Source: a virus. From it: a DNA stretch of 64,000 bases. The notes beneath the pieces are model-generated. The model was given only the letters and a program-made list of their open reading frames with translations, searched no databases and was not told the DNA's origin. Location of the stretch: positions 24,925 to 88,924 of IMG/VR virus record IMGVR_UViG_3300034106_006471; one strand, 5' to 3'. Shown here one piece after another: positions 2 to 57,432 of this stretch; position 1 is the first letter of the stretch, and each line of letters begins with the position of its first letter. Position numbers and translations under genes: made by a program.

Positions 2-2401
2 AGTAATACTGTGCCTAAATTAAAAGAAGCTTTTCCTGGAGGGGCCGGAAAATCTTATTCAGCAACTGCTGATCAACTATTAAGTTTACTGCCATACAAT
101 ATTGACACAAATAAACAAGTTGGAGGGGGCGCTAAATCTTTTGCTTGGACATCAGCACAAACTTCTAGGAGCCCTTTGCTAGAAAAACAATTAGCATCAG
201 CACAAGCATCATTTAGCGACAACAATGCGCCTCCAATAAAGGTTGTTGCACAAGCTAAAACAGACGACCCAAGATTTCAATTTAGCTATAGCGAAGTAGA
301 AGCCCCACTCTTTGATCCTAATTCTAGAAATTTAGGAAACGACATCAACAAGTATATAATGATATCTGCTGCTAAAGGATCTGAAGCTACTAATCCATTC
401 TCGTTAATTCCTGAAAATAAAAAAATATACGCTCAAAATATAGATTCTGTTATAGAGATGTTAAATAATAATATGCCTAATGGAGAAGAATTACAAAAAA
501 GAATAGACTCTGGCGAAGATATGAAAAATTTAGCATTTTCTTTTCCATTAACTGGAGATAATTTAGGATTATCATTTATACCTTCCGATGCTTTGAATTT
601 ATTTAAAACAACATCAATTGGACAATCATTAGGAGATAATATTAACTTTTTAGCACCAGGATCTGGTACCAAACCAACTTTAGAAAATTTTACTCTATCA
701 GGAGAATTAACTAAAGCATATACACAAGCTAGATTAGATAGAATTAAAAAGAGGGGAAGTGAAATATCACAAATTAAAACAGAAAAAGCAGAAGGATTTG
801 ATAAAATTAAAGATGTAAAAACAGACTTTGAAGTTGAAGAAGTAAGAATAGCTATAGCCAAAGTTGCTCAAAGACTAGCCCTAAAAGAATTTCAAAATGC
901 TAATTTACCAGTATCATTAAAAGACCCAAACAGCTTAGCAGATGTTGGTGGTTTAGCTAGTGGTATTTTTAGTATACAGCCAAAATTTGATAATAGAGGA
1001 GCATCATACTTATTATTAGATTCTTGGAGAGGTATATTTTCAACTCTTTATAAACCAGACAATGCACAAAAAGAATCATTATATTTCAAGTCATCTGGCA
1101 TAGATTTAAGTAGTGCAGCAGCAGCAGCTAGCACAGCAGAATCTGGTTTATCAGACCTGATAAGAAGAGAAAAAACTATTAGACAAGCTAAAAATAGTAA
1201 TGTTAGCACAGCACTAACATCACAACAAAAAGAAAGCTTAGAATTTGAAGGAGGTAAATTATATACCATAGGAGCAGACGGTAAAAAAACAGAAACTAGT
1301 CCAGAAGCTAGAGAAAGTCCAACAACAGTAGCTCAAGTAGAAAAAATAGCACTAGTACCAGAAAATATTTTTCCTGAACAAAAAACTAGACAAAATTATT
1401 TAGATGTATTAATAGACTATTATAATAAAGCTAAACTTAGTGATGCAGCTAAGAGCGCGATGGCTCTAAAAACTTGGTACGGCGCTCAAGATAATTATTT
1501 AAATACAAGCTTATCGCCAGAACAGCTATCAAGTAATATACCAAAAGTTGAACAAGATATTACACTAAATGATAGAGATAGTTTTCAAAAATCTCACTTT
1601 TTATTAGCCGGGCAGAAGTACGGAGAACTACCAACAATACCTAAAATAGTTGAACTAATTAAGGTTAGAGCAGAAGAAAAAGCTAAAGAGCCAGAAAAGA
1701 AGGAGACAAGCGCTGGTGCAGACATTGCGAATAATTATGCTACTGGAGGTTTAGTATATGCTAGTAAGGGTAAACTAATTAATTTTCAACCACGAGGAAC
1801 AGACACTGTTCCTGCCATGTTAACTCCTGGAGAATTTGTGATCAATAGAGAATCTACAAATAAATATAAGCCAGTTTTAGAGGCTATTAATAGTGGTAAT
1901 TATAATCAAGGAGGTATAGTTAAATATTTGAATAATGGTGGAATAGTATTCCCTAATTATTATCAAGATGCTGGAAATGTATCTGGTAGAAATGCCTCAT
2001 TTGATTTTGCTGGCTTTATGCAAAATCTTACTGGAAAGCTTATTAGTACTATTCCGGAAGCTATAAAACAAGCTTTTAGTGGCTCCTCAACCACAACCCA
2101 AACAACCACAAATGGTGTATCATCTATTGATAGTGGAGCTTTGGATAAATTAAATCAGTTTACAAATAGACTAAAGAGTGTGGCTGATACTTTGGCCGGT
2201 TTACAAGCTATTCCTTCAGAAATTAATATTACAGGAAAACATGATCTCAATATTATTATCAATGGAGATAGCGCATTGAATCAACTAAAGCCAGATTTAC
2301 AAAATATAGTATTATCTAAAATGAGAGATGCTTTTAAATCATTAATAGATAAAAATACACAAAGTGGTGGATTACTTAAGAATATGCCGGATTTAATTTA
2401 A
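2..2401 (+). CDS. tape-measure-like protein, C-terminal part (5'-truncated by window edge)
   Basis: Frame is open from base 2 (agt aat act gtg...). C-terminal motif GGLVYASKG...RGTDTVPAMLTPGEFVINRES...LEAIN is typical of phage tape-measure C-termini. Lies upstream of tail genes. Confidence 0.7.
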   Translation, partial: SNTVPKLKEAFPGGAGKSYSATADQLLSLLPYNIDTNKQVGGGAKSFAWTSAQTSRSPLLEKQLASAQASFSDNNAPPIKVVAQAKTDDPRFQFSYSEVEAPLFDPNSRNLGNDINKYIMISAAKGSEATNPFSLIPENKKIYAQNIDSVIEMLNNNMPNGEELQKRIDSGEDMKNLAFSFPLTGDNLGLSFIPSDALNLFKTTSIGQSLGDNINFLAPGSGTKPTLENFTLSGELTKAYTQARLDRIKKRGSEISQIKTEKAEGFDKIKDVKTDFEVEEVRIAIAKVAQRLALKEFQNANLPVSLKDPNSLADVGGLASGIFSIQPKFDNRGASYLLLDSWRGIFSTLYKPDNAQKESLYFKSSGIDLSSAAAAASTAESGLSDLIRREKTIRQAKNSNVSTALTSQQKESLEFEGGKLYTIGADGKKTETSPEARESPTTVAQVEKIALVPENIFPEQKTRQNYLDVLIDYYNKAKLSDAAKSAMALKTWYGAQDNYLNTSLSPEQLSSNIPKVEQDITLNDRDSFQKSHFLLAGQKYGELPTIPKIVELIKVRAEEKAKEPEKKETSAGADIANNYATGGLVYASKGKLINFQPRGTDTVPAMLTPGEFVINRESTNKYKPVLEAINSGNYNQGGIVKYLNNGGIVFPNYYQDAGNVSGRNASFDFAGFMQNLTGKLISTIPEAIKQAFSGSSTTTQTTTNGVSSIDSGALDKLNQFTNRLKSVADTLAGLQAIPSEINITGKHDLNIIINGDSALNQLKPDLQNIVLSKMRDAFKSLIDKNTQSGGLLKNMPDLI

Positions 2402-2424: not shown

Positions 2425-5400
2425 ATGAAAATATTTGATAATGTTGGTTGTGAATTTATTTATAACAGTAATAATACTTTTACGTTATTAGGTCCTCTCT
2501 CAGGATATGCATCATTATCAATACAAGACTATGGATTTTCTATTCCTTATTTGGCTAGAAATATTGATGGTAAAAATATAGAATATGAATTAGGAGTAGG
2601 ATATTTAGATAAAGTTGATAATAAATTAGTTTTAAAAGATAAAAAAATATCAGTTTCTTCAAACAATAATCAACACGTAGACTTTAGCAAAAATGGAAAC
2701 AAACAATTCTACATTTTTGTACATAATGTAAACTTTAATAATGCTTTTAATAATGTATTTATCTGCAATAAAGATTTTAATATCGAACCGCGTAAAAGCG
2801 TTTATATAGTTGATGTTTCTAGCGGTTATGTTACAGCATCCCTTCCAGACCCAGTTCTATGTGAAGCTGTAGAGCTAGAATTTAAAACTTTAGGAGATTC
2901 TGGAGTTCTAAGCCTAAACTGCGAAGAGTTTAAACTAGCTATAGATAGTAATAAATATACAAAATTAGTATCTACGGGTAAAGATTGGATTGAATTAAAA
3001 GATAATAATACTAATAATATATCATCATTATCTTTATCAACTGATGACTCTTCTTTTCGGGTTTTGGGCGATCCAACAGGAGCGGATAGATCTTTACAAT
3101 TTAATAATAATGGTTCTTTTGATGATTCATCACTATATCAAGGGAATAATGACAAATTACTTTTCGGATCTAGTACAGAATCAGCCGCTAAAAATATTAT
3201 TCCTAGTAGTGGAGATCATGATTTAATATTAAATCAAACAAAAGACGGATCTAATTTTATAGTTTATGGCACCGGAAATGCTCCGGGCTATCCAGCTAAA
3301 AACTTATACTTTAGTTATGACGGAAGACTAGGCATTAATATGCCATCAGGAGTAAATACAGGATCTATAGTAAAACCATCAACAATATTACACGTATTTA
3401 ATACATTATGTAGAGAAGGTATTCGTTTAGAGAACAGAGCTAATTGTTATCCAGCTGATATTACTCTATATGATAACCCCTTCACATCTCCTAGATCAAA
3501 TGGTAGTAGTATAGCCAGAATAGTTTTTGCTGGAAAAGATAATGCTTCTAATAAAATAGATTTTGCTACCATAGAAACTAAAATAAAATCAGCTTCATCT
3601 AAATTAGGACAGCTGGATATTTCTGTATCTAATGGCGCCTCATCTAAAACAACAATATCAACCAGCTCTGATAGAACAAAAATAGAATCTAATAATGCAT
3701 TAATAGACGTTAATACTTCATCAATTAGACTAAGTGGAACACACATCAGTATTACTGGAACCAATGTAGGAATAGCTGCCTTATCAAGCGTTAATTTAAC
3801 AGGTACAGCTATTGTTAGCACAAGTCTTAGATTACCATATATATCGTCAGTAAATTCATTACTATCTATTGATTCTTCTAATAGAGTTATAGCAGCTACA
3901 GGTTTTAAAATCCCTGGATTAAGTGGCGGTTCCGAAGAAAGACTATTAAGCGTTAAAACAGATGGCACTGTTGTTGGACAAATACCAAAAGATGGAGTTT
4001 GGCCCTATGAGACAGGACAAAAAATAGGCGGCAAAGATGTGATTTGGGATAGGTATCCTTATAGAACCGCCCAGGTTTGCTTAAATAAAATAACACAAGA
4101 GATTGAAATAGAAAATACTCCTCTGGAGGAATTTAGTATTGGTGATCAAATAGCTATTTTAAATTTGTCAAACAATACTACTATTTATAGAAGAATTAGA
4201 GATTTAACAATCAATAATGATATTATCACTAGAATCTTAATAGATCAAGATGTTTTATTTACTGGATCAACCGTAAATCTCAAAGTATATTCAGTATCCA
4301 AAGGTGGAATATTAACCAATACAATATATACCTCCGAAACCATATCAGACGCTACTGCTATAGTTTTAAGTTCTAGACCACAAGCTAATACGGTATTTAA
4401 TACTAAAAAGAAAAATATTGATTTTACAGTATTTGGTTCCGAAGATAAGCCTGCTTTTAATATATTAGCTAATGTAGGAAGTAATCAAAATATTACCGGA
4501 GCTTACTTTAAGTACGCCACTCATGTATCAGGCTCTCCACCTACCCAGTCCAAGATAGATTCGGATGGAAATGGCTCTATTAATAGTTCAGCTAATAATT
4601 CAGCTAATTTTGCCGATGCTGCTGATCCTGTTTGGTCTGGAAAAGTTACTGTGGTTGGGAATAATGGAAAGCCTAGTTATTATAAAACATTTGATCAAAA
4701 TGGGAATGTTGCAGAGTGGGTGGAAGATGAGAATAAACAGTATTCATATGCTAGCTATCAATATGTTTGTGGCGGCTCTTGGAGAACAGCCAATAATAAT
4801 AGTTTAAGAGGATATATTGCAACGCCAAGATATAGTGGTTTGGACGATATTGGATTTAGAATTTGTTCCAAAGCAGGATATTCTCACAATTTAGAAAATG
4901 CTTTATCAATAGATTTTGTTAGAGTTGATGATATTAATAATCCTTCCGATACTAGCCCTATATATGAAGAAGCTTGGACAAACAGATTTAATGATACTAA
5001 CGACGACCCGTTACCTATTACAAAATCTGATCTGGGTGTAGTTTCATATCCATTCAGAATTAGCTCATATGAAGTTACTAATGGTCAGTATTTAGCATTT
5101 TTAAACAGTGTGGCGACAGGAGTATCTTCAATTAGTGGATTATATAAGTCAAGTATGACTTCTAGTCCAGTTGGAGGAATATCAGTTTCTGGTAATGGAA
5201 CATCAATACCGTTCACTTATTATGTTAAAAATAATATGGAGAGTATGCCTGTCGTATTCGTGGACTATGTAAGCTGTATCAGATATATAAATTGGTTAAG
5301 CAATGGAGCCCCAACCGGCAATAACATATTGCCTGGAATTACAGAATTTGGTGCATACAGCATACAGTCTGGTCCAGGAGGCACCGATCAAATTACTAAA

Positions 5401-8265
5401 AATAGAGATCAAAATTATTGGTTACCTAGCTTAAACGAATGGCATAAAGCAGCATATTACTATCCAGCTAATGAAGAAAACTCCTCCCCTTACTCTGCTA
5501 TTACTATTAGAACAGATACTCCATTTGAGTACAAGCAAGCAGAGCCTTTTGTGTCAGGAACAGGACAAATAGCTTCTGTAACAATTAGTGGTTTACTTTA
5601 TGCTGATTATTTAAAGATTAATCCTCTTGTTATAAAAGATTTAGATAGGAATTATACAACAGCTATTGATCCGACAGAAACGGTTGTTTCTGTAAAAGGC
5701 TTAACATATTTTATTAATCAGACAGGAGAAGATACTGGTAGATTGATCTTAAGGCCAGACAAAACAGTATTTACTCAACCAGTATTAGTAACTACAGGAG
5801 TAGCAAGCACAGTTGATAAATCTGCTGGGATACTAATAGAATCTAGTGGGATTAGTTATGTAGACAGTCAAGGCAAAAAAATTCCTGGAGGCTTATTTCC
5901 AGGGCCAAACGGTGGCTACTTATTTAAGGATCCCAATGGCAGTAATATAATATCTTCCTCTGGCAATTTGATATCTAAATCCGTTAGTGGAGAATATTTA
6001 GCATCTATAACCAGTATTCCTAATAATAGCATTGTTTATCAAGACAATAGATCCGTTTTAGTTGGAAGCTCTTGGTTTAGTGTTGGTAATCCTCCATCTA
6101 ATTTAAAATTCGAAGGAGGAGATAAAGTTGTAACGATATCGTCGTCCTCAACATCAGAATCAACAACAGAACAATCTGAAGAAGATCAAAAACAAAAAGT
6201 ATTATTATATACCGATAATTTAGCCATCGGCCCTGTTTTAGAGTCATATTCTGGCAGCTTATTAACTCATGGAGGTTCTAATATTGCTTATTGGCAACCA
6301 AATGAATTTTTAAGATTACCAGGAGCGATTTGGGAAAAATATCCTAGACGAGCAATAGAGTTTAGTCTAGATCCTGAATCAGATTATACCCAAATTGATT
6401 CTTTTAGATTTGTTGATATAGAACCATCAGATGGAGGAACAGGACCAGTAACTGTTGGTGAACTTAAAAATGAATTTGCTATTAATGAGACTATAGCTAT
6501 ATATAATCAAAAGAGAAATGTAATATATGTTAAAATATCTAATAAAGGATTAGTAGATTCTAGAGGTAGAGTAGTAAATAGTGGATTATTTACTGATGAA
6601 AGTAATTTGGTAATGAATGTTTGTCCACCAATACCAGCAGATTTTGCAAGACAATCTAAATTAGAATTGGCACCAGATAATACAAATGATGGTAGACTAA
6701 TAGCGTATGCTTTTTCTGTTCAAAAGGGTGGTTATTTGGATATGCTCATGGAGCCACAGGCTACTGGAGTTTTTTCTTGCGAAGGACTAATTACATCTCC
6801 CACAACCACATCTGAATACAAATTTAAACCAGGAACATCTAATACTATTAGTTTGCGTCCAGAGATCCACACAGCCTTCAATAAGCTTGCTGAGAATATA
6901 GACTTTGTTGTGTATGGACATAGACCAACTTTATTTACCAGATATGAAAATGACTGGTTTGATAAAGATAAGTCTGGATTGCCCACAGGATTGACTCCAG
7001 CATTTAGAATTAATACAAAAATAAATAACAGCGTAATTGGATCGTTAGAGAGTGGCGTTCTGGTTCAAACCATAGGAGAAACAAGCTCTATAGCAACTGG
7101 TATACTTCCTGATTTTAATCCTAAAATAACAATAAATACTAAAGAACCATATAGAATAGCCACACTAAATAATATTAAACAGGGTATTTTGCTACCTAAT
7201 AGTAATCCAGCCTTAAATTTGGAACTTGAAAAAACGTATGGAACTACAATTCCTATAACCGGTGTTGCAATATCAGGTACGAAAGATTTATCAAATTATG
7301 CTGATTTGACTATCGGAGGAACAACATATACTGATCAATTAATTACAAAAGATGTAGTATTAGGTCCATTATGGAAGGGAGTGATTCCTATACCATATGA
7401 ATTATCATTAACTCAAAAAGTTTATGCTCCTAATTATCCTTTGACAATTAATAATCTTGGTCAAATTGTTTCACTAATACCTCCTCCAGCACCAACAGCG
7501 CCATCTGCTCCCTTAGACTTAGTAGCAAATCCAAAAAATAATTCAGTAATACTAACATGGAATCCCCCTGAGAATGACGGTGGAGAGCCAATTATTGGTT
7601 ATGTGGTTGAATTCTCTATTGACGATGGAAATGTTTGGATAATTGCTGATCAAATAGACGAACAAACATTATTGCCCAATAATCCTGATAAAAATACTAT
7701 AAGAATATTAAATAGTCCAACTGTTACTAACAATATAGGCTATATATTTAGAGTAAGATCTTATAATAGTATTGGTTTTGGTGCATACTCTCAAATTTCT
7801 ACTAGCGTTACCCCATCATCTTCTTTATCCCCAGCTTCTGTTAATAATTTAAGAATCTCTCAGGGAGAAGATTTTGACGGCATAAGAAATTCTACTAATA
7901 TAGTATTGTCTTGGGACCCAGTTGTTTCATTACCAGATGACACAACTCTTCAAAATTATATTGTAGAATATTGGATCTATAATACATTAGATAATAAAGA
8001 TCTAAAATTAGCAACCTGGACAACAGCAGCCAATAGCCCTGTTAGTCCCACAAGCACATCTATATCAATTGGAGGAATAAATACTACATCATTATACTAC
8101 TTTAGCGTATCTACTCTAGCTTCTAATGGTAGTTCTAGCAGTAGATCATTATATGCTAGTTTAGGTAGCGATCCGGATCCAAGACCAATAACTAATCGTC
8201 GAATTAGAAATAATCCTAATAGCTACAACTTCGGATCTATTATATTCACAGGATCATGCTCATAA
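2425..8265 (+). CDS. giant tail fibre/adhesin with permuted FGE-sulfatase-like domain and two C-terminal FN3 domains
   Basis: N-terminus resembles the common phage fibre anchor (FTLLGPLSGY...YELGVG...SSNNNQHVDFS; GADRSLQFNNNGSF). FGE motifs DQNGNVAEW, GGSW, IGFR, EVTNGQY, PVVFV, LPSLNEWHKAAYY at ~4597-5466. FN3 motifs APSAPLDL..VILTWNPPENDGGEPIIGYVVE..YIFRVRSYNSIGFG at ~7495-8160. Confidence 0.75.
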   Translation: MKIFDNVGCEFIYNSNNTFTLLGPLSGYASLSIQDYGFSIPYLARNIDGKNIEYELGVGYLDKVDNKLVLKDKKISVSSNNNQHVDFSKNGNKQFYIFVHNVNFNNAFNNVFICNKDFNIEPRKSVYIVDVSSGYVTASLPDPVLCEAVELEFKTLGDSGVLSLNCEEFKLAIDSNKYTKLVSTGKDWIELKDNNTNNISSLSLSTDDSSFRVLGDPTGADRSLQFNNNGSFDDSSLYQGNNDKLLFGSSTESAAKNIIPSSGDHDLILNQTKDGSNFIVYGTGNAPGYPAKNLYFSYDGRLGINMPSGVNTGSIVKPSTILHVFNTLCREGIRLENRANCYPADITLYDNPFTSPRSNGSSIARIVFAGKDNASNKIDFATIETKIKSASSKLGQLDISVSNGASSKTTISTSSDRTKIESNNALIDVNTSSIRLSGTHISITGTNVGIAALSSVNLTGTAIVSTSLRLPYISSVNSLLSIDSSNRVIAATGFKIPGLSGGSEERLLSVKTDGTVVGQIPKDGVWPYETGQKIGGKDVIWDRYPYRTAQVCLNKITQEIEIENTPLEEFSIGDQIAILNLSNNTTIYRRIRDLTINNDIITRILIDQDVLFTGSTVNLKVYSVSKGGILTNTIYTSETISDATAIVLSSRPQANTVFNTKKKNIDFTVFGSEDKPAFNILANVGSNQNITGAYFKYATHVSGSPPTQSKIDSDGNGSINSSANNSANFADAADPVWSGKVTVVGNNGKPSYYKTFDQNGNVAEWVEDENKQYSYASYQYVCGGSWRTANNNSLRGYIATPRYSGLDDIGFRICSKAGYSHNLENALSIDFVRVDDINNPSDTSPIYEEAWTNRFNDTNDDPLPITKSDLGVVSYPFRISSYEVTNGQYLAFLNSVATGVSSISGLYKSSMTSSPVGGISVSGNGTSIPFTYYVKNNMESMPVVFVDYVSCIRYINWLSNGAPTGNNILPGITEFGAYSIQSGPGGTDQITKNRDQNYWLPSLNEWHKAAYYYPANEENSSPYSAITIRTDTPFEYKQAEPFVSGTGQIASVTISGLLYADYLKINPLVIKDLDRNYTTAIDPTETVVSVKGLTYFINQTGEDTGRLILRPDKTVFTQPVLVTTGVASTVDKSAGILIESSGISYVDSQGKKIPGGLFPGPNGGYLFKDPNGSNIISSSGNLISKSVSGEYLASITSIPNNSIVYQDNRSVLVGSSWFSVGNPPSNLKFEGGDKVVTISSSSTSESTTEQSEEDQKQKVLLYTDNLAIGPVLESYSGSLLTHGGSNIAYWQPNEFLRLPGAIWEKYPRRAIEFSLDPESDYTQIDSFRFVDIEPSDGGTGPVTVGELKNEFAINETIAIYNQKRNVIYVKISNKGLVDSRGRVVNSGLFTDESNLVMNVCPPIPADFARQSKLELAPDNTNDGRLIAYAFSVQKGGYLDMLMEPQATGVFSCEGLITSPTTTSEYKFKPGTSNTISLRPEIHTAFNKLAENIDFVVYGHRPTLFTRYENDWFDKDKSGLPTGLTPAFRINTKINNSVIGSLESGVLVQTIGETSSIATGILPDFNPKITINTKEPYRIATLNNIKQGILLPNSNPALNLELEKTYGTTIPITGVAISGTKDLSNYADLTIGGTTYTDQLITKDVVLGPLWKGVIPIPYELSLTQKVYAPNYPLTINNLGQIVSLIPPPAPTAPSAPLDLVANPKNNSVILTWNPPENDGGEPIIGYVVEFSIDDGNVWIIADQIDEQTLLPNNPDKNTIRILNSPTVTNNIGYIFRVRSYNSIGFGAYSQISTSVTPSSSLSPASVNNLRISQGEDFDGIRNSTNIVLSWDPVVSLPDDTTLQNYIVEYWIYNTLDNKDLKLATWTTAANSPVSPTSTSISIGGINTTSLYYFSVSTLASNGSSSSRSLYASLGSDPDPRPITNRRIRNNPNSYNFGSIIFTGSCS

Positions 8266-8277
8266 AAGGAGAAGTAA

Positions 8278-8829
8278 ATGTCAGCACCTCTTATTCTTAA
8301 ACACTGTTACGAAAATTTAAACGCCCCCAGCCCAGATCAATTAGAGGTTGGCGAACTAGTTATTAATTCTAGAACAGGGAAATTATATACTAGGTTAGCA
8401 TTAGATAATAAAAATCCACCAACCCCAGGACCTATTATAGAATTTATTGGTAAGCAAGTTTGCTATGCAAAAATACCGTCAATTACATTTGATAGCGTAT
8501 CCGATTTTTGTTGCAATGAGGATATTCTTAAAGTTAAGGTTATAGATTTACTTAAAGATACTGAATATAGATTCGAACTTGAAGATATTAGTGGAAATAA
8601 TATTGACTATACTATTAATAGCCCCTTATACACTGATTATACTGTTAGTGATTTAGGAAACTCTTCTGTCGAGTTAAGAGAAGCCGTAATACCTATTACT
8701 TTAAAAATATTGGGATCAAAAAATATTACAATACTTAAATTTAAAATTTTAGGCGGCAGTGTTGATATTAATAGAGAATTAACTAGTAGAACTATAACTA
8801 TTTCTTGCAATAATTGTGATGGACTATAA
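8278..8829 (+). CDS. virion/tail-fibre-associated protein
   Basis: SD-like AAGGAG upstream. N-terminal LILKH..APSPDQLEVGELVINSRTGKLYT matches the 'L..GE.AIN..DGKLY' motif common at phage fibre N-termini. Confidence 0.55.
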   Translation: MSAPLILKHCYENLNAPSPDQLEVGELVINSRTGKLYTRLALDNKNPPTPGPIIEFIGKQVCYAKIPSITFDSVSDFCCNEDILKVKVIDLLKDTEYRFELEDISGNNIDYTINSPLYTDYTVSDLGNSSVELREAVIPITLKILGSKNITILKFKILGGSVDINRELTSRTITISCNNCDGL

Positions 8830-11800
8830 AATGTTTATTCAGGCAAAAAGATATGGAGTATTAGAAGCTGCTTGTGGAATACAAGTATTTTTTGAAAAAA
8901 TAATACCAAGACCTACTAAAATAGCAAATATTATTAATGCTACTAGAGTTAATAGCGTATCAACTATAACTTTGAATAGACTAATAGAGTCTGTAAGTAA
9001 GAATCAGAGAATAACAATAGCACAATCGACTAATGCTCCATCTGACATTATTCCTATACCAGATTCATTTATTGGGGATTTTACCACTACATCTTCTATA
9101 GAGGTAGTAGAGTCTAATAATCTATCATTAACATTTGATCAAAACCTACCTAATACTCAAGGACTATCAGGACAGGTTATGACAGGAGATCTGTACAAGC
9201 AGTCAAACATAGCACCATCTGATCAGTATTTAATACAATTTTTTATAGAAACAAAAACACCTTCTAGCGCTGAAGCCACAGTAAATCCTTCGTCTTATAT
9301 TGTTGGAGGTTATGAGAATTTTATTCCCTCAACGGTTCTTAATGTAGTATCAAGATACAGTAAATCTGTAAAAATTTTATTAAAAATGGTTATCAAAGAC
9401 TATAAAAGTAATACTCTTCTTAGAACGGAATATCAAGAAATTATAGTATCAGATGCTTCTTCCAAACCATGTGAAATTATATACGAAAAACCTATTGATA
9501 CTAATTTTTATGAATTAAATAAAAAAAATAATTGGAGTTATTTTCATGATGGATATTTGTTAGCAGAATTTATTCCAGATAAGTATCATAAAGATATTAT
9601 TATTAAGCTTATTAAAAAAAATAATCGGTTATTACCTAATAGAAGCGACAAAGATAGAATTCGTATTATTGCTGATCCTATAAAACTACAAGATAAACAG
9701 ACTACAATAGATAAAATTAGAAATGCAGTATTAGATATGTATGGTACTATTAGTAATAGTATTGCTATAGCTAATTTAGGAAATAAATCATACGATATTA
9801 TCGTAGAAAATAAATTGGCTAAGCCTGAAGACTTTCAAGATCTTATAGTAGATATTGTGCCCCCAGTAACAGGAACAAACATTAAATTTTCTGAAGTAGC
9901 AACCGCAGAAAACTATACTCAAGATTTAGCTAGTATTCCTAAGATTAGTATATTAAAATGGAATAATTATGGTATTGGAGAATTACATTATAATAGTAGA
10001 ATATATGATAATGATAGTATATTAGTTAATATTTCTGGAGATATTACTGCAAGTTTATCCGGAACTATATCTGATATTACTAATGGAGTTAATTATTTAT
10101 CTACATTATATATTCAACCTACTCCTACTCCATCTAATACTACTACTCCTACTGTTACTCCAACCATAACAGCTACATCGACAACTACTCCAACAATTAC
10201 TCCAACGATCACTCCTACAGAAACAATAACCCCTAGTCCAACAGAAACGATTACTCCTACTCCTACTGAAACGATAACTCCGACTCCAACAGAAACTATA
10301 ACACCAACTCCTACCTCAACAGAATTACCTATTAGTATTAATGTTGTTGTTCATGACGAAAGTAGAGATGGACCGTTATCAAACTCACCTAATTCGCCTA
10401 CTTCTGTTTTTCTTATTAGTGGAAATAGTAGAGTAGTAGGATCTGTTGGTGGAAATAGTGATTATTTTAATTTTCAAATAGATTCAAATCATATATTAAA
10501 TTCTATTTCCTTAGTAAATTATGTATCTCTTGACAGTATTGCTTGGATAGGTATTCAATCAGGACTATCATGGACGGCCGGAGATAATCCTAATTTAATG
10601 TTGGATCAACAACATTTTGGATCAGATGATATTAATAATAATATTTTAACCAACGCTACTCCGTTAAGCTCTGGAGTTTATGTTATAAGAATTCAACAAC
10701 TAGGCTCAGAGGCTTTGTATAATCTTAATTTTGAATTAGTAGCTGCTCCAACTTCTACTCCAACAATCACTCCAACCATTACCTCTACTCCCACGACAAC
10801 ATTAACAGTTACCCCAACTAATACAATTAGTCCAAGTTTAACTCCAACAAATACTATTACATCAACACAAACCCCAACCAACACACCTACTTTAACAACA
10901 ACTCCCACCCCTACTACTAGCTCAATGATTAATGTATTGCCTACTGTTACTCCAACTATTACCCCAACCTCTAGCTTAACAAATACGCCTACGATTACTC
11001 TAACAACCACTCCAACCATAACTCCTAGTGTTAGCTCAATAATTTTTAGAACCAGTAATACTGCTAATTATAATAATTGTGCTAGTTGGGATAATTTAAG
11101 TGGTAATGTAACGTCGGTTGGAACTAATGGAAAAGGATCGTCGTATGGAATTCATGATATGAATGGTAATGTTTGGGAATGGACAGAAAGATTGTGGAAT
11201 GCTGGAGCGCGAGGAGTTAAGGGAGGTAGCTGGAATAGTATAGATAACAGATTATTAAGAACATATGAAGGTATTCAACAGCCAACAACAGTATTAAACC
11301 AGATAGGTTTTAGAGTAGGTTCATTTGTATTAAATAATTTAAATAATTTTATTGTAATTTCAGATAGTGAAAATATTAATGATGATTCTGGAATAGGTAA
11401 TGTTGATTATATATATAGTATTGGTAGATTTTTAGTAACAAATAGCGAATATGCTGAATTTTTAAATAATATAGCAGCACTAGATACTTTTGAAGTATAT
11501 GATATTAATATGAATGGTAATAGAGGAGGCATAATAAGGTCAGGAATTTCGGGATCATACATTTATACAGTCAAAAATAATTATCAAAATAAACCGGTTG
11601 TTTTTGTAAATTGGTATAATGCTGCAAGATATTGCAATTGGTTACACAATAGCAAGCCAACAGGAAATCAAAATAATAGTACTACAGAGAACGGAGCTTA
11701 TCAGTTGACAGGAAATACAAATAGTCCAAATAGAACAATAAATGCTCAATTTTTTATACCAAATGGAAACGAGTGGCAAAAAGCTGCATTCTATAAAGCA

Positions 11801-11893
11801 GGCGGAACTAGTTCAGGATATTGGAATTATGCTACAGCTAGTGATTCTTTACCCACTTGTGTTTTATCAAATAGCTTAGGTAACGGAATTTAA
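8816..11893 (+). CDS. modular virion adhesin: AcrB-docking-like segment, Pro/Thr linkers, PEP-CTERM-type extracellular domain, permuted FGE domain
   Basis: 1025-aa ORF. Thr/Pro repeats at ~10117-10320 and ~10747-11030. Domain HDESRDGPLSN...DYFNF...IQQLG..YNLNF at ~10340-10745. FGE motifs YGIHDMNGNVWEW, KGGSW, IGFR, LVTNSEYAEFLN, KPVVFVNWYNAARYCNWL, IPNGNEWQKAAFY at ~11051-11890. Confidence 0.75.
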   Translation: MMDYKMFIQAKRYGVLEAACGIQVFFEKIIPRPTKIANIINATRVNSVSTITLNRLIESVSKNQRITIAQSTNAPSDIIPIPDSFIGDFTTTSSIEVVESNNLSLTFDQNLPNTQGLSGQVMTGDLYKQSNIAPSDQYLIQFFIETKTPSSAEATVNPSSYIVGGYENFIPSTVLNVVSRYSKSVKILLKMVIKDYKSNTLLRTEYQEIIVSDASSKPCEIIYEKPIDTNFYELNKKNNWSYFHDGYLLAEFIPDKYHKDIIIKLIKKNNRLLPNRSDKDRIRIIADPIKLQDKQTTIDKIRNAVLDMYGTISNSIAIANLGNKSYDIIVENKLAKPEDFQDLIVDIVPPVTGTNIKFSEVATAENYTQDLASIPKISILKWNNYGIGELHYNSRIYDNDSILVNISGDITASLSGTISDITNGVNYLSTLYIQPTPTPSNTTTPTVTPTITATSTTTPTITPTITPTETITPSPTETITPTPTETITPTPTETITPTPTSTELPISINVVVHDESRDGPLSNSPNSPTSVFLISGNSRVVGSVGGNSDYFNFQIDSNHILNSISLVNYVSLDSIAWIGIQSGLSWTAGDNPNLMLDQQHFGSDDINNNILTNATPLSSGVYVIRIQQLGSEALYNLNFELVAAPTSTPTITPTITSTPTTTLTVTPTNTISPSLTPTNTITSTQTPTNTPTLTTTPTPTTSSMINVLPTVTPTITPTSSLTNTPTITLTTTPTITPSVSSIIFRTSNTANYNNCASWDNLSGNVTSVGTNGKGSSYGIHDMNGNVWEWTERLWNAGARGVKGGSWNSIDNRLLRTYEGIQQPTTVLNQIGFRVGSFVLNNLNNFIVISDSENINDDSGIGNVDYIYSIGRFLVTNSEYAEFLNNIAALDTFEVYDINMNGNRGGIIRSGISGSYIYTVKNNYQNKPVVFVNWYNAARYCNWLHNSKPTGNQNNSTTENGAYQLTGNTNSPNRTINAQFFIPNGNEWQKAAFYKAGGTSSGYWNYATASDSLPTCVLSNSLGNGI
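10117..10320 (+). repeat. degenerate coding repeat (TPTETITP / Thr-Pro linker)
   Basis: Imperfect 12/24-nt period encoding PTPTPSNTTTPTVTPTITA...TPTETITPSPTETITPTPTETITPTPTETITPTPT. Confidence 0.8.
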
Positions 11894-11895
11894 TT

Positions 11896-14800
11896 ATGCA
11901 ATATAATAACTATGCTCATATAGAATTAAAAATTATTTCTAAAAATAAAAATACTATCGGAAATAGTGCAAATTATAAAAATTTAGCAAAATGGAATGAT
12001 TCGTATGAAGGGAATGTTACTTCTGTAACATCTAATGGAGATCCTAGCTATTATGGATTATATGATATTAGTGGTCAGGTATATGAATGGACAGAAACTA
12101 GTAGCACAGAACATAAAGAATTAAAAATATGCAGAGGAGGATGCTACGCTGACACTAATCCAGCTTCTTTAAGTAAAAACAATAGAAAGAAATTTCATTA
12201 TGACAGTATGTTAAATGAAGGATTTTTTGGTTTTAGAGTAGCATCAATCAATACTTCTGATATTAATATATTAAATTATTTGGTACCAGTAGCTGATGAA
12301 CAAAATATTCCTGATAATTGTGCAAATAATTCTATTGGTCAAGTTAATTATACTTATGGAATAAGTAGTCGTTTAATTGATAATTCTAGATATTGCGAAT
12401 TTCTAAATTTTGTAGATCCAGAAGGATCCAATAACTATCAGTTATATGATGAAAGAATGGGATCAAGTCCAATAGGAGGAATTTTATATATAAAATGTAA
12501 TGAGATCGGGAATAAGTATATTGTGAAAAGTATGATGACAAATAAACCAGTAACTTTTATTAAATGGAAAATGGCAGCAAGATATATTAACTGGTTAAAC
12601 AATGATTTATCCTCTATAAATCTTGATAATGGAACATATAATTTATTATCAGACAATATAGTGCGTAGTCCTGATGCTAAATATTTTTTACCAAGTGAAG
12701 ATGAATGGTACAAAGCGGCCTACTATGATCCTAATAAGAATGGACCAAATAAGCCAGGATATTGGAATTATGGAACAAAAAGTGATAATGACCCTTTAGC
12801 TATTCTGTGTAATGACTACGGAGATCCTACAGGGATAGAAGGTCTTCAGGACTCTGTTAAAACTTTTCCTATATTTGTTAATAAAAATTATGATATATCT
12901 AAAGATAATCTATGTCCCAGTATAAGTATTTCTGGACAAAATATTATACCATCAGGACATATCCATACTGTAAATAGTACAATTACAAATTTAAAGTATG
13001 GTATGGCTTACTCTTATAATTTTGCCTCGTCTTTTGCTAATTGGCCATGCAAAATTACCCCATTATCAGGAATTTTTACAGCATATGGGGACACTCAAGA
13101 GATAAATGCTATTTTAGAATTTTGTCCTAAAAATTATGATGATATAACTATTTGTAATAGTAATTTAGCCTACCATAATGTTAATGAAAAAACCAATAAT
13201 AGTTTAATTAATTTAGAACTTAAAGTTGTTAGTAATAATTGTATTGATGGATCTAGGTCCAACCTATTGATAGAGTCTAGTGGATTACCATCTATTGTTT
13301 CTAGGAATAAATATCTTAATATTAAATTTTTAGATTCTGAAGATAATACAATTACAGTTTCAGGTAACTTATGCTGTGAACCAATACCTATAGTAGTTAG
13401 TATGAGTGGACATAAACCAGGAGATCTATATACTTATGAATTATCATCATCCTCTCCTAGTGTTAAATTAATTCCTCATACAGGAATAGTTTCTTTTGGT
13501 AGCGGAATTGGTAAAATAACATCTTTTGCGATAGGTTTAAATAATAACGTATCGGTACTCTCGGCCAGAGTAAATAAGAAGAACAGTGCGGATATAGCTA
13601 GTTCTGATCAGGTATTATTACAATGCATAAGAGATTGCGCCAAGAGTTGCGATAATCATGCTAATTTTGACAATAAAGCTAAGTGGGGTATTTGCGTCCC
13701 AGATTGTTCTAATGTTTATAATTCTCCAGTAAGAAATTCTGCTAGTGTTACTACTGTAGGGACTAACGGAGGACCTAGTGAGTATGGAACATACGATATG
13801 GATGGTAATGTTTGGGAGGCGGTACATTCAGCAAATCTTAACGCTAATCCTGCTTCTTTTAAACTAAGAGGAGGTCATTTTGGCTCATCTCAAATAGGGA
13901 AAAATGTTAGTTCAGTATACAACAACCTAAGTGCTGATAATATTAGTTTTAGAGTAGGATCATATACCAATCCTTATAATTATGTTAATATGGTTCATGT
14001 TGCAGATATAGGAAGTTTACCATCTGGAAATAAACCTGATTCCAATGGTTTTGGTAGTGTTCCATATACATTTAAGATGAGCAAGTACCCTGTAACAAAT
14101 GATGATTATGTATCATTTCTTAATAATGTGGCATCAACAGGAATAACTTTAACTCAATCAAATTATGTTTATGATAGCGCTATGAGCGGTTGTTATGGAG
14201 GTATAAATAGAGTTCCAAATGGGAATAATTTTTCATACTCTGCTCAACCATGTATGGGTAATAAGTCTGTGAGATTTGTTAATTCATATGGTATTCTTAA
14301 ATATATTAATTGGTTGAATAATAATAAACCCAACGGATGGAATACTTCCAATAGTGGAACATATTTACTTAATTCTGATGGAGTAATAACTTCTGGAAAC
14401 AGATCTACTTGTGCCGAATATTTCTTACCTAGCGAAAATGAATGGTATAAAACAGCTTATTATAAGGGAGGAAATACTAATAATACTAATGCTAATTATT
14501 GGACTTATGCAACAAGATCTAATGTGGATCCAGAATCTGTAAGAGCTTCTGACTGCGGAGATGGTATCAAAGAAGATTGTGAACCCGAACCCATTCCAAC
14601 AACTACTGTTACTCCAACGAAAACAGAAACCCCAACAGTTACTCCAACAAGAACAGCAACCCCAACAGTTACTCCAACAAGAACAGCAACCCCAACAGTT
14701 ACTCCAACAGTAACGACAACCTCAACAGTTACTCCCACAGTAACGACAACCTCAACAGTTACTCCCACAGTAACGACAACCTCAACAGTTACTCCCACAG

Positions 14801-15642
14801 TAACGACAACCTCAACAGTTACTCCCACAGTAACGACAACCTCAACAGTTACTCCCACAGTAACGACAACCTCAACAGTTACTCCAACAGTAACGACAAC
14901 TCCAACCAATACTGTTACTCCAACTAAAACGCTAAATTGTAATAATTGTAGTAATAATCTTATATTGAATGGAGATTTTGAACAAGGATCTCTAGGAGGT
15001 CCTACGGGTATAGGAGGAACAGTAACTAGTTGGTCCCTAAGCGATTATTCTGTAATTCGCTCATTATCCTATAGTCTTTCACAAGAACCATTAAATAGAT
15101 GGATAGCCTTGGGCAAGTGTGAATTATTGGTTGTAGCTGATCAAAATCTGGTCCAAATACGAAAGGGATCTATTCAACAATCGATAAGTGGTCTTACTAC
15201 AGGACAATCGTATATTATTAATTTTAAATTAACAGGGTTTCTTTATAGTAACCCAGAACTAAGTGGACCTTATTCATCACCACCATCATGTTTACTATCG
15301 GTAATAGGAAATAACACAGTAAGTCAAAATTATACTGTTAATTCACCTTGTGGAGTAAGCACGCCGCAATCATATCAGAGTATGGGTTGGCTTGATAAAA
15401 GTTATGTCTTTACAGCAGACAGGTCATTCATAACAATCAAATTTGAAAACTCGAACTCGTGTTCTACTAATTGTGATTGTTGCATGCCCGCTATAGACTG
15501 TGTTTGTATAACACAAATAACACCAACTGCTACTCCAACTAATAGTGAAACTCCTACTACTACTCCAACTAATACTCTTACTCCATTTTTAACGCCATCA
15601 ATTACTCCAACAAATAGTTTGACTCCCACAAAAATAAATTAA
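11896..15642 (+). CDS. virion adhesin with two permuted FGE domains, Thr-rich stalk and DUF642/CBM-like domain
   Basis: FGE copies at ~11953-12830 (YGLYDISGQVYEW...FGFR...KPVTFIKW...LPSEDEWYKAAYY) and ~13651-14570 (YGTYDMDGNVWE...ISFR...YPVTNDDY...LPSENEWYKTAYY). NLILNGDFEQG...YIINFKL...YVFTAD..ITIKFE..PAIDCV at ~14956-15510 resembles galactose-binding-fold DUF642 domains. Confidence 0.75.
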   Translation: MQYNNYAHIELKIISKNKNTIGNSANYKNLAKWNDSYEGNVTSVTSNGDPSYYGLYDISGQVYEWTETSSTEHKELKICRGGCYADTNPASLSKNNRKKFHYDSMLNEGFFGFRVASINTSDINILNYLVPVADEQNIPDNCANNSIGQVNYTYGISSRLIDNSRYCEFLNFVDPEGSNNYQLYDERMGSSPIGGILYIKCNEIGNKYIVKSMMTNKPVTFIKWKMAARYINWLNNDLSSINLDNGTYNLLSDNIVRSPDAKYFLPSEDEWYKAAYYDPNKNGPNKPGYWNYGTKSDNDPLAILCNDYGDPTGIEGLQDSVKTFPIFVNKNYDISKDNLCPSISISGQNIIPSGHIHTVNSTITNLKYGMAYSYNFASSFANWPCKITPLSGIFTAYGDTQEINAILEFCPKNYDDITICNSNLAYHNVNEKTNNSLINLELKVVSNNCIDGSRSNLLIESSGLPSIVSRNKYLNIKFLDSEDNTITVSGNLCCEPIPIVVSMSGHKPGDLYTYELSSSSPSVKLIPHTGIVSFGSGIGKITSFAIGLNNNVSVLSARVNKKNSADIASSDQVLLQCIRDCAKSCDNHANFDNKAKWGICVPDCSNVYNSPVRNSASVTTVGTNGGPSEYGTYDMDGNVWEAVHSANLNANPASFKLRGGHFGSSQIGKNVSSVYNNLSADNISFRVGSYTNPYNYVNMVHVADIGSLPSGNKPDSNGFGSVPYTFKMSKYPVTNDDYVSFLNNVASTGITLTQSNYVYDSAMSGCYGGINRVPNGNNFSYSAQPCMGNKSVRFVNSYGILKYINWLNNNKPNGWNTSNSGTYLLNSDGVITSGNRSTCAEYFLPSENEWYKTAYYKGGNTNNTNANYWTYATRSNVDPESVRASDCGDGIKEDCEPEPIPTTTVTPTKTETPTVTPTRTATPTVTPTRTATPTVTPTVTTTSTVTPTVTTTSTVTPTVTTTSTVTPTVTTTSTVTPTVTTTSTVTPTVTTTSTVTPTVTTTPTNTVTPTKTLNCNNCSNNLILNGDFEQGSLGGPTGIGGTVTSWSLSDYSVIRSLSYSLSQEPLNRWIALGKCELLVVADQNLVQIRKGSIQQSISGLTTGQSYIINFKLTGFLYSNPELSGPYSSPPSCLLSVIGNNTVSQNYTVNSPCGVSTPQSYQSMGWLDKSYVFTADRSFITIKFENSNSCSTNCDCCMPAIDCVCITQITPTATPTNSETPTTTPTNTLTPFLTPSITPTNSLTPTKIN
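14605..14904 (+). repeat. 30-bp tandem repeat x10 encoding TVTPT(V/R/K)T(T/A/E)T(S/P)
   Basis: Units start at 14605, 14635, ... 14875. Five consecutive units (14725-14874) are identical acagttactcccacagtaacgacaacctca; two (14635-14694) are identical acagttactccaacaagaacagcaacccca. Confidence 0.95.
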
Positions 15643-15786
15643 AATATTATGCATTCTTCTAAAATAAATAAAAATAATATATACTATATCAGAGAAGTGA
15701 GTACAGATTTTTTGCTAAACAATAGTGATATTGTAACCATGATGATATCATAAATATACGAAGAAACCCACACAAGATTAAAAAAT

Positions 15787-17646: not shown

Positions 17647-17687
17647 TTAATTTAACTTTATAAAGTATAGTATAATAGAGGACAATT

Positions 17688-23396: not shown

Positions 23397-23397
23397 T

Positions 23398-43585: not shown

Positions 43586-43757
43586 TTATTCCTACTTCCG
43601 ATGATGGTTGAACGTAAATGGTATTATTACTATCATTAGCCGAGCAGGCATTTACTGTTTTGCAACAACTTACTCTAACGTCGTTGATTTTAATAAACTC
43701 TTGACCATTCAATGTGAATCTATCTCCTACCGCTAGTTCTGAAAATACTTTATTCAT
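43578..43757 (-). CDS. small hypothetical protein (59 aa, not in ORF track)
   Basis: MNKVFSELAVGDRFTLNGQEFIKINDVRVSCCKTVNACSANDSNNTIYVQPSSEVGINA; ATGA overlap with the dnaE-N stop, GGAG SD upstream, fills the gap exactly. Confidence 0.7.
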   Translation of the reverse strand: MNKVFSELAVGDRFTLNGQEFIKINDVRVSCCKTVNACSANDSNNTIYVQPSSEVGINA

Positions 43758-45634: not shown

Positions 45635-45645
45635 TTTTTAAACCT

Positions 45646-49853: not shown

Positions 49854-49855
49854 AA

Positions 49856-52890: not shown

Positions 52891-52891
52891 A

Positions 52892-55289: not shown

Positions 55290-55327
55290 TGCATAATCCT
55301 TATAGTGGTATTATGTATGCTCTACTA

Positions 55328-55337: not shown

Positions 55338-55338
55338 A

Positions 55339-57414: not shown

Positions 57415-57432
57415 TGTAATCTAAGAGTGTAA

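What the first reader, a model, noticed from the sequence alone, without database searches (positions are those of the whole stretch)
4597..14570. A family of circularly permuted FGE-sulfatase/CLec domains displayed on virion proteins
Seen: five copies (~4597-5466, ~11051-11890, ~11953-12830, ~13651-14570, and minus strand ~62984-63825) all have the order [AN(Y/F)..W.G.VT.VG.NG..S.YG.YDM.GNVWEW..GGS..GFR] then [V.D..N..D..G.V.Y.(Y/F).I....VTN..Y..FLN..PV.FV.W..A.RY.NWL..LP..NEW.KAAYY..YW.YAT]. Established: canonical FGE/SUMF1 domains have the reverse order (EVTN/PV/LPTEAEWE first, GNVWEW/RGG/GFR last). In the copies traced to their end, the new C-terminus (...PTCVLSNSLGNGI) and new N-terminus (SNTANY...) correspond to adjacent sequence in the canonical extracellular subfamily, as expected for a clean permutation. 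The catalytic FGE cysteine pair is absent. The GG...GFR segment, which is the ligand-binding region varied by DGRs in this fold, differs strongly among copies (SWRTANNNSLRG..., SWNSIDNRLLR..., CYADTNPASLSK..., HFGSSQIGKNV...). Inference: a non-catalytic receptor-binding module that was permuted once and then amplified into a multi-specificity adhesin repertoire. I cannot tell whether this has been described.
Basis: partly seen in the sequence, partly recalled or inferred. Interest (0 to 1): 0.8.

Follow-up and report, generated by a model that had tools for sequence, protein, structure and literature searches.

The report
Swapped-halves lectin-fold domains on phage tail
An uncultured lake phage carries five copies of a known binding fold (FGE-sulfatase / C-type-lectin-like) whose two halves are wired in swapped order, a rearranged form that I found in phage DNA but not in the bacterial genomes sampled.

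Summary
All five copies match Pfam PF03781 in two pieces. The first part of each copy hits the profile's C-terminal half (142-254) and the second part hits its N-terminal half (35-135). Solved canonical structures, including TvpA, give the same swapped order.

The permuted unit stands alone. Pro/Thr linkers or protein ends bound it here, and many 300-330 aa proteins elsewhere are one such unit.

Its new ends map to contiguous sequence in canonical bacterial relatives. Those relatives are signal-peptide/PEP-CTERM surface proteins of Planctomycetota and Verrucomicrobiota.

- 76 IMG/VR loci: 95 ORFs, 90 of them purely B-A.
- 80 best bacterial loci: 97 ORFs, 0 B-A.
- 602 sampled genomes of those two phyla: no permuted unit.

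A single origin of the B-A form is not rejected (AU p 0.915). Related phages also hold a second breakpoint.

I found no reverse transcriptase, no template repeat and no variation across four other lake metagenomes. The binding function is inferred.

This scan has noted the same family before on other DNA (93 notes, at least 53 genomes). Seven paper searches found no description.

The parts
2..2401 (+). C-terminal end of a giant tape measure protein (ORF spans contig 13868-27325)
   Evidence: ORF map of the whole record. Its N-terminal part hits phrog_28, tail length tape measure protein, E 9.9e-24. The window part hits phrog_25241 weakly.
2425..8265 (+). P0001, 1946 aa, first gene after the tape measure; holds permuted copy 1 and fn3 domains
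   Evidence: No PHROG match. fn3 matches at aa 1694-1793.
4576..5520 (+). Permuted copy 1 (B half 4576-4869, A half 4915-5520); the most divergent copy, lacking the usual C-terminal Y-W-x-Y-A-T / G-D-G end
   Evidence: Half-profile hits. Pfam pieces: profile 152-253, then 35-123. Alignment.
4771..4860 (+). Variable GG...GFR loop of copy 1
   Evidence: Low family conservation here.
8816..11893 (+). P0002, 1025 aa; Pro/Thr linkers (about 10112-10330 and 10739-11026), then permuted copy 2 at the very C-terminus
11036..11890 (+). Permuted copy 2 (B half 11036-11323, A half 11348-11890); starts right after a Pro/Thr linker and ends at the stop codon
   Evidence: Bounds. A contig of another lake run covers 9542-11849 with 0 differences.
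11222..11314 (+). Variable loop of copy 2 (nearly the same as that of copy 5)
11896..15642 (+). P0003, 1248 aa; copy 3 at the N-terminus, copy 4 internal, a Pro/Thr linker (about 14593-15000), DUF642 (15136-15510), Pro/Thr tail
   Evidence: PF04862 DUF642, E 5.7e-08. Its start lies 2 nt after the P0002 stop, in another frame. A contig of run X5 bridges 11216-13179 with 0 differences.
11944..12834 (+). Permuted copy 3 (B half 11944-12246, A half 12280-12834)
12136..12237 (+). Variable loop of copy 3
13633..14568 (+). Permuted copy 4 (B half 13633-13962, A half 13990-14568); followed by a Pro/Thr linker
13870..13953 (+). Variable loop of copy 4
62981..64000 (-). P0004, C-terminal 339 aa of a gene cut by the contig end: Pro/Thr linker (63839-64000), then permuted copy 5 (62984-63838) ending at the stop
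   Evidence: It is 72% identical to copy 2 and its sister at SH-aLRT 100. The two are 73.8% identical in DNA over 863 aligned columns.
63560..63652 (-). Variable loop of copy 5

Best explanation
**What it is.** Each of the five stretches is one self-contained, circularly permuted FGE-sulfatase (C-type-lectin-like fold) domain of about 285 aa. The canonical C-terminal half comes first: the N-x-A-N-Y motif, the G-N-V-x-E-W motif, G-G, a variable loop, then G-F-R. A conserved linker of about 10 residues joins it to the canonical N-terminal half. The chain ends where the canonical form continues into the second half.

**Where it came from.** The form most likely arose from tandem canonical domains, of the kind seen in surface proteins of Planctomycetota and Verrucomicrobiota, by loss of the outer halves. 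It then spread in a group of low-GC uncultured phages.

**What it does here.** This lake phage shows the domains on Pro/Thr stalks, at the ends or inside giant proteins encoded directly after the tape measure gene. I infer that they are non-catalytic binding heads for host-surface ligands, probably glycans. There are four different loop sequences and hence up to four specificities. The sequences are fixed, not hypermutated.

**Shown:** the permutation, the domain bounds, the phage/bacterium split, the tail-module position of three genes, and the lack of DGR (diversity-generating retroelement) signs.
**Inferred:** that it folds as one domain, that it binds a ligand, what the ligand is, and that the proteins sit in the virion.
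For: **Swapped order**
- Pfam and PDB profile searches show it. PHROG phrog_18508 and the NCBIfam models give the same picture.

**Self-contained unit**
- Copies 2 and 5 run from a Pro/Thr linker to the stop codon. Copy 3 starts 22 aa after the start codon. Copy 4 is followed by a linker.
- 17 proteins of 302-330 aa from other sources align end to end with one unit.

**Clean break**
- The new termini are contiguous sequence in canonical relatives. The old termini are joined by a conserved linker (G-F-R, two residues, S, then the N-P-x-N motif and N-F-V).
- Bacterial tandem proteins join one domain to the next by 6-19 residues at the same place.

**Distribution**
- 95 ORFs in 76 IMG/VR loci: BA 74, BABA 11, BABABA 2, BABABABA 1, BABAA 2, BAA 1, ABABA 2, ABA 1, BAAB 1.
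- 97 ORFs in 80 bacterial loci: AB 82, ABAB 6, ABABAB 3, B only 5, A only 1, none B-A.
- Planctomycetota: 21 of 301 genomes hit, 44 rows, none spanning both halves.
- Verrucomicrobiota: 24 of 301 genomes hit, 50 rows. The 3 wide rows are tandem canonical proteins with signal peptides.

**Origin**
- 3 changes of order on a 239-unit FastTree.
- 35 of 37 B-A units form one group, SH-aLRT 91.
- AU test of one clade: p 0.915.

**Tail context**
- The tape measure is confirmed, and the genes follow it on the same strand.
- A DUF642 domain sits in P0003 and fn3 domains in P0001.

**Not catalytic as an FGE**
- 0-1 Cys in the loop segment.

**Not hypermutated**
- No PF00078 match in the record.
- No template-like repeat and no GC-rich patch.
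- Long contigs of four other lake runs carry the copies with 0 differences.
Against: - That the two halves pack as one normal domain therefore rests on domain bounds and stand-alone proteins. A domain-swapped dimer is not excluded.
- None of the carrier proteins matches a known tail fibre, Dit or Tal family, so virion location rests on gene order alone.
- Copy 5 lies at the other end of the contig, next to small unknown genes and upstream of replication genes, not in the tail module.
- The record is only 62% complete, so a reverse transcriptase could lie in the missing part.
- The domain finds nothing in 50,697 GenBank phage records. No cultured phage can vouch for the function.
It is not exhaustive.
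- The free 'quick' tree was poorly optimised: the constrained trees scored higher. The tree tests are weak.
Confidence: 0.7

Rival explanations
1. The domains are decoration or environment-adhesion modules. They would help loose adherence to particles, slime or non-host surfaces, as Ig-like and fn3 decorations are thought to do. They would not be the primary receptor-binding heads, and some (copy 5) may not be in the virion at all.
For: - fn3 domains and long Pro/Thr stalks sit in the same proteins.
- Many copies occur per genome here and in related phages, for example four in one 3380-aa ORF of L090.
- Copy 5 lies outside the tail module.
- No homology to known receptor-binding proteins.
Against: - Three carrier genes sit exactly where siphovirus tail-tip and fibre genes sit, right after the tape measure.
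- The homologous fold is the receptor-binding part of DGR variable proteins such as TvpA. The alignment is; the role is recalled.
Confidence: 0.2
2. The swapped order is only an effect of phase in tandem arrays. The real folding units would be canonical A-B pairs formed between neighbouring copies, for example the end of P0002 with the start of P0003, or between chains.
For: - P0002 ends with an A half and P0003 starts with a B half 2 nt later.
- Tightly packed tandem arrays exist in relatives.
- No structure prediction was possible.
Against: - Copies 1, 4 and 5 have no neighbouring half within hundreds of residues.
- 74 of 95 viral ORFs hold a single B-A pair.
- Proteins of 302-330 aa consist of one B-A unit only.
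- Pro/Thr linkers bound the B-A unit, not an A-B unit.
- P0002 and P0003 are in different frames, and the junction is identical in another lake run.
Confidence: 0.05
3. The domains are enzymes of the FGE/EgtB/PvdO kind, or a kinase as the PHROG label says, acting on host or phage surface molecules.
For: - The family match is to PF03781, whose named members include enzymes.
- phrog_18508 is labelled kinase.
- Weak NCBIfam matches to PvdO and EgtB.
Against: - All NCBIfam matches are far below their cut-offs (17-34 bits against 350-500).
- No Cys pair lies in the loop segment.
- That segment is the least conserved part of the family, which is unlike an active site.
- The closest relatives are secreted PEP-CTERM surface proteins.
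Confidence: 0.05
4. The loops are DGR variable regions whose reverse transcriptase and template lie in the missing 38% of the genome.
For: - The loop aligns with the C-terminal stretch of TvpA, recalled as its variable region.
- The record is 62% complete.
I did not check that note's own case.
Against: - No RVT_1 match in 88.9 kb.
- No template-like repeat and no GC-rich patch in any copy.
- Long contigs of four other lake runs, from four studies, carry the copies with 0 differences.
Confidence: 0.04

Closest known systems
TvpA, Treponema denticola variable protein 1 (PDB 2y3c), an FGE-type C-type-lectin-fold variable protein
   Same: - Homologous over both halves: query 194-268 aligns with chain 89-174, and query 18-108 with chain 186-291.
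- The variable GG...GFR loop aligns with its C-terminal stretch.
- No catalytic role is expected.
   Different: - The order of the halves is swapped.
- The loop is internal, not C-terminal.
- No reverse transcriptase, no template repeat and no population variation here.
- Shown on phage tail-module proteins instead of a bacterial lipoprotein (the latter is recalled).
Signal-peptide / PEP-CTERM FGE-sulfatase-domain surface proteins of Planctomycetota and Verrucomicrobiota (e.g. ORFs in L010, L032, L069, L079)
   Same: - The closest sequence relatives, 40-50% identical per half.
- Same motifs throughout and the same variable loop.
- They often occur as tandem arrays with short joints.
   Different: - Canonical A-B order in all 91 ORFs that hold both halves.
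- They have a signal peptide and a PEP-CTERM tail. The phage copies have neither and sit on Pro/Thr stalks.
pFGE / SUMF2 (PDB 1y4j) and FGE / SUMF1 (e.g. 1y1e, 2aft)
   Same: Same Pfam family. 1y4j is the best or second-best PDB match.
   Different: - Swapped order of the halves.
- No Cys pair in the loop (its position in FGE is recalled).
- Not ER or cytoplasmic enzymes.
PorK/GldK and GldJ lipoproteins of the type IX secretion system (PDB 9ots, 9mzu; TIGR03525)
   Same: A non-catalytic structural use of the FGE-sulfatase fold. Weak matches.
   Different: - Canonical order.
- All scores lie far below the family cut-offs (28-34 bits against 350).
- Unrelated context.

Membership tests
FGE-sulfatase domain family (Pfam PF03781) | Significant match to the family profile | tested here: met
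   P0001 50 bits, P0002 69.4 bits and P0003 89.2 bits against a cut-off of 23.3. Both halves of P0004 score 45.3 and 43.8 bits.
FGE-sulfatase domain family (Pfam PF03781) | Collinear match along the profile (N-terminal half before C-terminal half) | tested here: not met
   In 5 of 5 copies, profile 142-254 comes before profile 35-135. PDB sequences give the same order.
Formylglycine-generating enzymes proper (SUMF1/FGE) | Catalytic Cys pair in the segment between GG and GFR (position recalled, not from a call) | tested here: not met
   Cys counts in that segment are 0, 0, 1, 0 and 0. No alignment to an FGE chain was printed, so the exact columns were not checked.
DGR variable proteins (Mtd / TvpA class) | Reverse transcriptase gene in the element | tested here: not met
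   No PF00078 match at E <= 0.1 in the 88,924-bp record, which is 62% complete.
DGR variable proteins (Mtd / TvpA class) | Template repeat matching the variable region except at adenines | tested here: not met
   blastn with word size 7 of each copy against the whole record finds only the copies' own conserved motifs.
DGR variable proteins (Mtd / TvpA class) | Variation of the loop within populations | tested here: not met
   Long contigs of four other lake runs cover the copies with 0 other letters. Contigs drop rare variants, so low-level variation is not excluded.
PEP-CTERM surface proteins with FGE-sulfatase domain (PVC bacteria) | Signal peptide, canonical domain, C-terminal PEP-CTERM anchor | tested here: not met
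   The relatives show these by eye. The window's proteins show none of them. No signal-peptide predictor was run.
Phage tail fibre / receptor-binding proteins | Gene position in the tail module, downstream of the tape measure | tested here: met
   P0001, P0002 and P0003 follow the tape measure ORF on the same strand. P0004 does not.
Phage tail fibre / receptor-binding proteins | Homology to a described tail fibre, Dit, Tal or RBP family | tested here: not met
   No such PHROG, Pfam or PDB sequence match.
C-type-lectin-like fold as one compact domain | The two halves pack into a single fold | not testable with these tools
The ESM Atlas holds no model of the stand-alone protein P0165. The support is indirect only: domain bounds and stand-alone units.

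The most novel reading that the evidence does not exclude
A phage-only rewiring of a bacterial surface-adhesin fold. Phages captured the FGE/CLec domain of PEP-CTERM surface proteins of Planctomycetota or Verrucomicrobiota, which are then their likely hosts. They cut tandem copies at new places, at least twice. This moved the chain ends away from the base of the fold, so that the head can be mounted at either end or in the middle of a fibre. The result is a fixed, genome-encoded library of specificities that does the job hypermutation does in DGR phages.
Probability: 0.25. Interest if true: 0.7.

Novelty: new variant of a known kind. Interest (0 to 1): 0.55.

Why it matters
The FGE-sulfatase/CLec fold is the main scaffold of massively variable binding proteins in phages and bacteria. 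A large permuted branch that seems restricted to phages has three consequences.

- **A textbook case of permutation by duplication.** Canonical tandem forms, two breakpoints and the conserved new linker are all still visible.
- **Better annotation.** It shows how to annotate thousands of metagenomic 'formylglycine-generating enzyme' calls in phage DNA as likely binding heads. No Pfam, NCBIfam or PHROG model fits the permuted order.
- **Testable targets.** It offers small stand-alone domains of about 300 aa for structure and ligand work. These could reveal hosts and receptors of abundant uncultured lake phages.

Tried and rejected
- The ESM Atlas holds the stand-alone protein P0165 but no model of it.
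I could not see the gene neighbourhood of permuted proteins on the very long metagenome contigs (up to 471 kb). I cannot say whether those contigs are phage or cell.

**Searches that found nothing**
- Megablast of window 43000-58500 against GenBank phages: no match.
- tblastn of the domain against the same 50,697 records: no match.
- The DnaE-like polymerase finds only distant phages, under 35% identity, so no host could be named.
- PHROG scans of nine upstream ORFs gave one weak unknown-function match. P0001 and the 619-, 1902- and 2441-aa neighbours matched nothing in PHROGs. The 619-, 1902- and 2441-aa neighbours also matched nothing in Pfam, and PDB sequence searches of the 1902- and 2441-aa proteins found nothing. 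P0001 matches only PF03781 and fn3 in Pfam and PDB.
- DGR reading: rejected for this record.
- The lead from note e1-5861408 (a GC-rich orphan variable region): no 60-nt window above 48% GC in any copy.
- No RNA holder was listed for the stretch, so nothing can be said on expression.
- The joints and 'other letters' lie in Pro/Thr repeats and conserved motifs. They come from other contigs that share those motifs. I did not read them as rearrangements.

**Tests with little power**
- The AU test of the five window copies as one clade (p 0.714) cannot separate duplication inside this genome from older paralogy.

**Papers**
- Seven full-text searches found no description of a permuted FGE/CLec domain.
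- I read passages only of PMC7824862, PMC8195603 and PMC3521204. None concerns this. PMC6642488 I saw only as a search listing.
- Supplements were not consulted. Subscription papers and the 1.7 million unsearched PMC articles may hold a description.

Full report
**What the window is.**
- The window is bases 24925-88924 of an 88,924-bp IMG/VR virus record that CheckV rates 62% complete.
- It is AT-rich, 25-34% GC in 4-kb windows.
- The minus strand encodes a DnaE-like polymerase, a DnaB-like helicase, a UvsX-like recombinase and both ribonucleotide reductase subunits.
- A giant ORF (contig 13868-27325, window 2-2401) is the tape measure protein: phrog_28, E 9.9e-24.
- Directly after it, on the same strand, come P0001 (1946 aa), a 183-aa ORF, P0002 (1025 aa), P0003 (1248 aa) and ORFs of 619, 1902 and 2441 aa.
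- Runs labelled lake water metagenome hold the stretch. Nine hold at least half of its sampled words, and one of those may be the source.

**The observation.**
- Pfam PF03781 (FGE-sulfatase) hits P0001, P0002 and P0003 above its cut-off, with 2, 2 and 4 stretches.
- I cut each of the five copies in two. Every N-terminal piece matches the C-terminal part of the profile: 142-254, and for copy 4 only 162-191. Every C-terminal piece matches the N-terminal part: 35-135, and for copy 3 only 74-128.
- Two of the ten pieces fall just below the cut-off when taken alone (22.1 and 19.7 bits).
- A six-frame search of the whole record finds these ten half-matches and nothing else.
- Profiles of the copies, searched against PDB sequences, give the same picture. 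In 1y4j the query's first part aligns with chain 188-267 and its later parts with chain 35-52 and 116-142. In TvpA (2y3c), query 194-268 aligns with chain 89-174 and query 18-108 with chain 186-291.
- PHROG phrog_18508 and the NCBIfam models PvdO, GldK and EgtB are likewise matched out of order, and far below their cut-offs.
- The order is therefore not collinear.

**Is the permuted unit one domain?**
- Copies 2 and 5 begin right after long Pro/Thr linkers and end at the stop codon. Copy 3 begins 22 residues after the start codon. Copy 4 is followed by a Pro/Thr linker.
- Copies 1, 4 and 5 have no other half within hundreds of residues.
- Elsewhere, 17 proteins of 302-330 aa align end to end with one unit and have little else.
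- 74 of 95 ORFs in IMG/VR loci hold exactly one B-A pair.
- The P0002/P0003 junction (stop, 2 nt, ATG, other frame) is identical in a contig of another lake run that bridges 11216-13179. It is not an assembly slip.
- A swapped dimer cannot be excluded without a structure.

**How clean is the permutation?**
- I call the canonical N-terminal half A and the canonical C-terminal half B.
- The closest canonical relatives are bacterial proteins that carry a signal-peptide-like start, then A, then B, then a PEP-CTERM-like tail.
- In them, the stretch from the Y-W-x-Y-A-T motif through the G-D-I/G motif to the N-x-A-N-Y and G-N-V-T-x-V-G motifs is contiguous.
- The old ends are joined in the phage form by a conserved short linker between G-F-R and the first strand of A.
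- Bacterial tandem proteins (A-B-A-B) join one domain to the next by 6-19 residues at the same place. This fits origin from a tandem pair by loss of the outer halves.

**Distribution.**
- A full HMMER search of 1.84 billion cluster representatives gave 11,432 hits at E <= 1e-3 and 1,760 at E <= 1e-30.
- Of the best 149 apart from the window's own protein, 63 are purely (BA)n, 59 purely (AB)n and 27 mixed or partial.
- Of 115 further proteins of 157-501 aa, 75 are B-A, 31 are A-B, 6 have a second kind of permutation and 3 hold the A half only.
- The 80 best loci in one genome per bacterial species are mostly Planctomycetota, Verrucomicrobiota and Lentisphaerae, with some Myxococcota, Armatimonadota, Acidobacteriota and Auribacterota. 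They hold 97 ORFs with hits: AB 82, ABAB 6, ABABAB 3, B only 5, A only 1. None is B-A.
- The 76 best IMG/VR loci have a median GC of 0.356. They hold 95 ORFs: BA 74, BABA 11, BABABA 2, BABABABA 1, BABAA 2, BAA 1, ABABA 2, ABA 1, BAAB 1.
- In 301 sampled Planctomycetota genomes, 21 have a match, and none of the 44 rows spans both halves.
- In 301 Verrucomicrobiota genomes, 24 have a match. The three wide rows of 50, all in one genome, are tandem canonical proteins.
- GenBank phages (50,697 records) give no match at all.
- In what I sampled, the permuted form is therefore a feature of uncultured phage DNA.

**One origin?**
- I aligned the halves separately, concatenated them and built trees.
- On a FastTree of 239 non-redundant, unambiguous units, the order changes 3 times.
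- On a 72-unit IQ-TREE, 35 of 37 B-A units form one group (SH-aLRT 91), and starred branches force only one change.
- The AU test does not reject all B-A units as one clade (p 0.915). The constrained tree was 71.5 log-likelihood units better than the short free search, which shows that the free search was weak.
- Copies 2 and 5 are sisters (SH-aLRT 100, 72% identical). The other three sit among units of other phages. All five as one clade is not rejected either (p 0.714). Amplification inside this genome is therefore shown only for that pair.

**A second breakpoint.**
- This was found in related phages, not in this window.
- In L114, L132, L138, P0021 and P0037, and in six stand-alone proteins of 290-345 aa, the unit starts about 55 residues earlier. 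It holds positions 129-186 of the A profile, then B, then positions 1-127 of A. In L114 a Pro/Thr linker follows it.
- These units carry the phage-type linker. On a FastTree they fall in two groups beside B-A units (weak).

**Function.**
- The segment between G-G and G-F-R is the least conserved part of the B half, in permuted and canonical relatives alike. It aligns with the C-terminal stretch of TvpA. I recall that stretch as TvpA's variable region.
- The five copies carry four loop types. Copies 2 and 5 share one.
- The loops hold 0, 0, 1, 0 and 0 Cys, so the FGE Cys pair (position recalled) is absent.
- I found no reverse transcriptase, no template-like repeat and no GC-rich patch.
- Long contigs of four other lake runs carry the copies with 0 differences.
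- P0003 also carries DUF642, and P0001 carries fn3 domains.
- I therefore read the domains as fixed, non-catalytic binding heads on flexible stalks of tail-associated proteins.
- Gene order supports the tail association for three of the four genes. No homology supports it. Binding itself is inference.

**Known or new?**
- No Pfam, NCBIfam or PHROG model fits the permuted order.
- Seven full-text searches found no description.
- This scan has noted the same family on other DNA: 93 notes in at least 53 genomes. Earlier agents reported that it is predicted to fold as one domain and is found in phage-like DNA. Those are unchecked AI notes. My distribution result agrees with them, and I could not test the fold.
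- I rate it a new variant of a known kind. It is real and widespread, and of moderate to good interest.

Noticed in passing
L114:4603-6846 (ORF aa 71-372); also L132, L138, P0021, P0037, P0185, P0195, P0205, P0215, P0221, P0261: A second circular permutation of the same domain, with the break about 55 residues earlier (end of the A half, then B, then the first 127 positions of A). It occurs beside ordinary B-A units and as stand-alone proteins of 290-345 aa.
   Followed up: partly
Alignment A2, N-termini of stand-alone proteins such as P0171, P0172, P0182, P0183, P0188, P0204, P0256: Many stand-alone permuted proteins share a short N-terminal motif before the domain (Met, two or three residues ending in Phe, then Ser/Asn-rich residues, then Leu-Leu). 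It might be a docking peptide. P0003 starts in a loosely similar way.
   Followed up: no
window 15136-15510 (+), P0003 aa 1081-1205: A DUF642 domain (PF04862, E 5.7e-08) sits in a Cys-rich C-terminal part, between Pro/Thr linkers, in the protein that carries copies 3 and 4.
   Followed up: no
window 10331-10738 (+), P0002 aa 506-641: A module of about 135 aa between two Pro/Thr linkers has no Pfam, PHROG or PDB sequence match. It may be another unknown display domain.
   Followed up: no
contig 13868-27325 (window 2-2401): The tape measure ORF is about 4,480 aa long, very large for a record of this size. Only its first 800 aa or so match tape measure families.
   Followed up: no
window 17688-30723 (+): Two giant ORFs (1902 and 2441 aa) downstream of the domain carriers match nothing in Pfam, PHROGs or PDB sequences.
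   Followed up: partly
G001 (Phycisphaerae MAG behind L018): One bacterial genome holds 19 matches to the domain (at least 12 A halves), all canonical. The canonical form is itself a large paralogous surface-protein family in some Planctomycetota.
   Followed up: no
window 4400-15700: Long contigs from four other lake-water runs of four studies cover large parts of this stretch with 0 differences. The phage recurs almost unchanged across samples and years (2020-2024).
   Followed up: partly
L121:2-4399 (ORF aa 598-1171): One viral ORF has the order B-A-A-B: a permuted unit directly followed by a canonical one.
   Followed up: no
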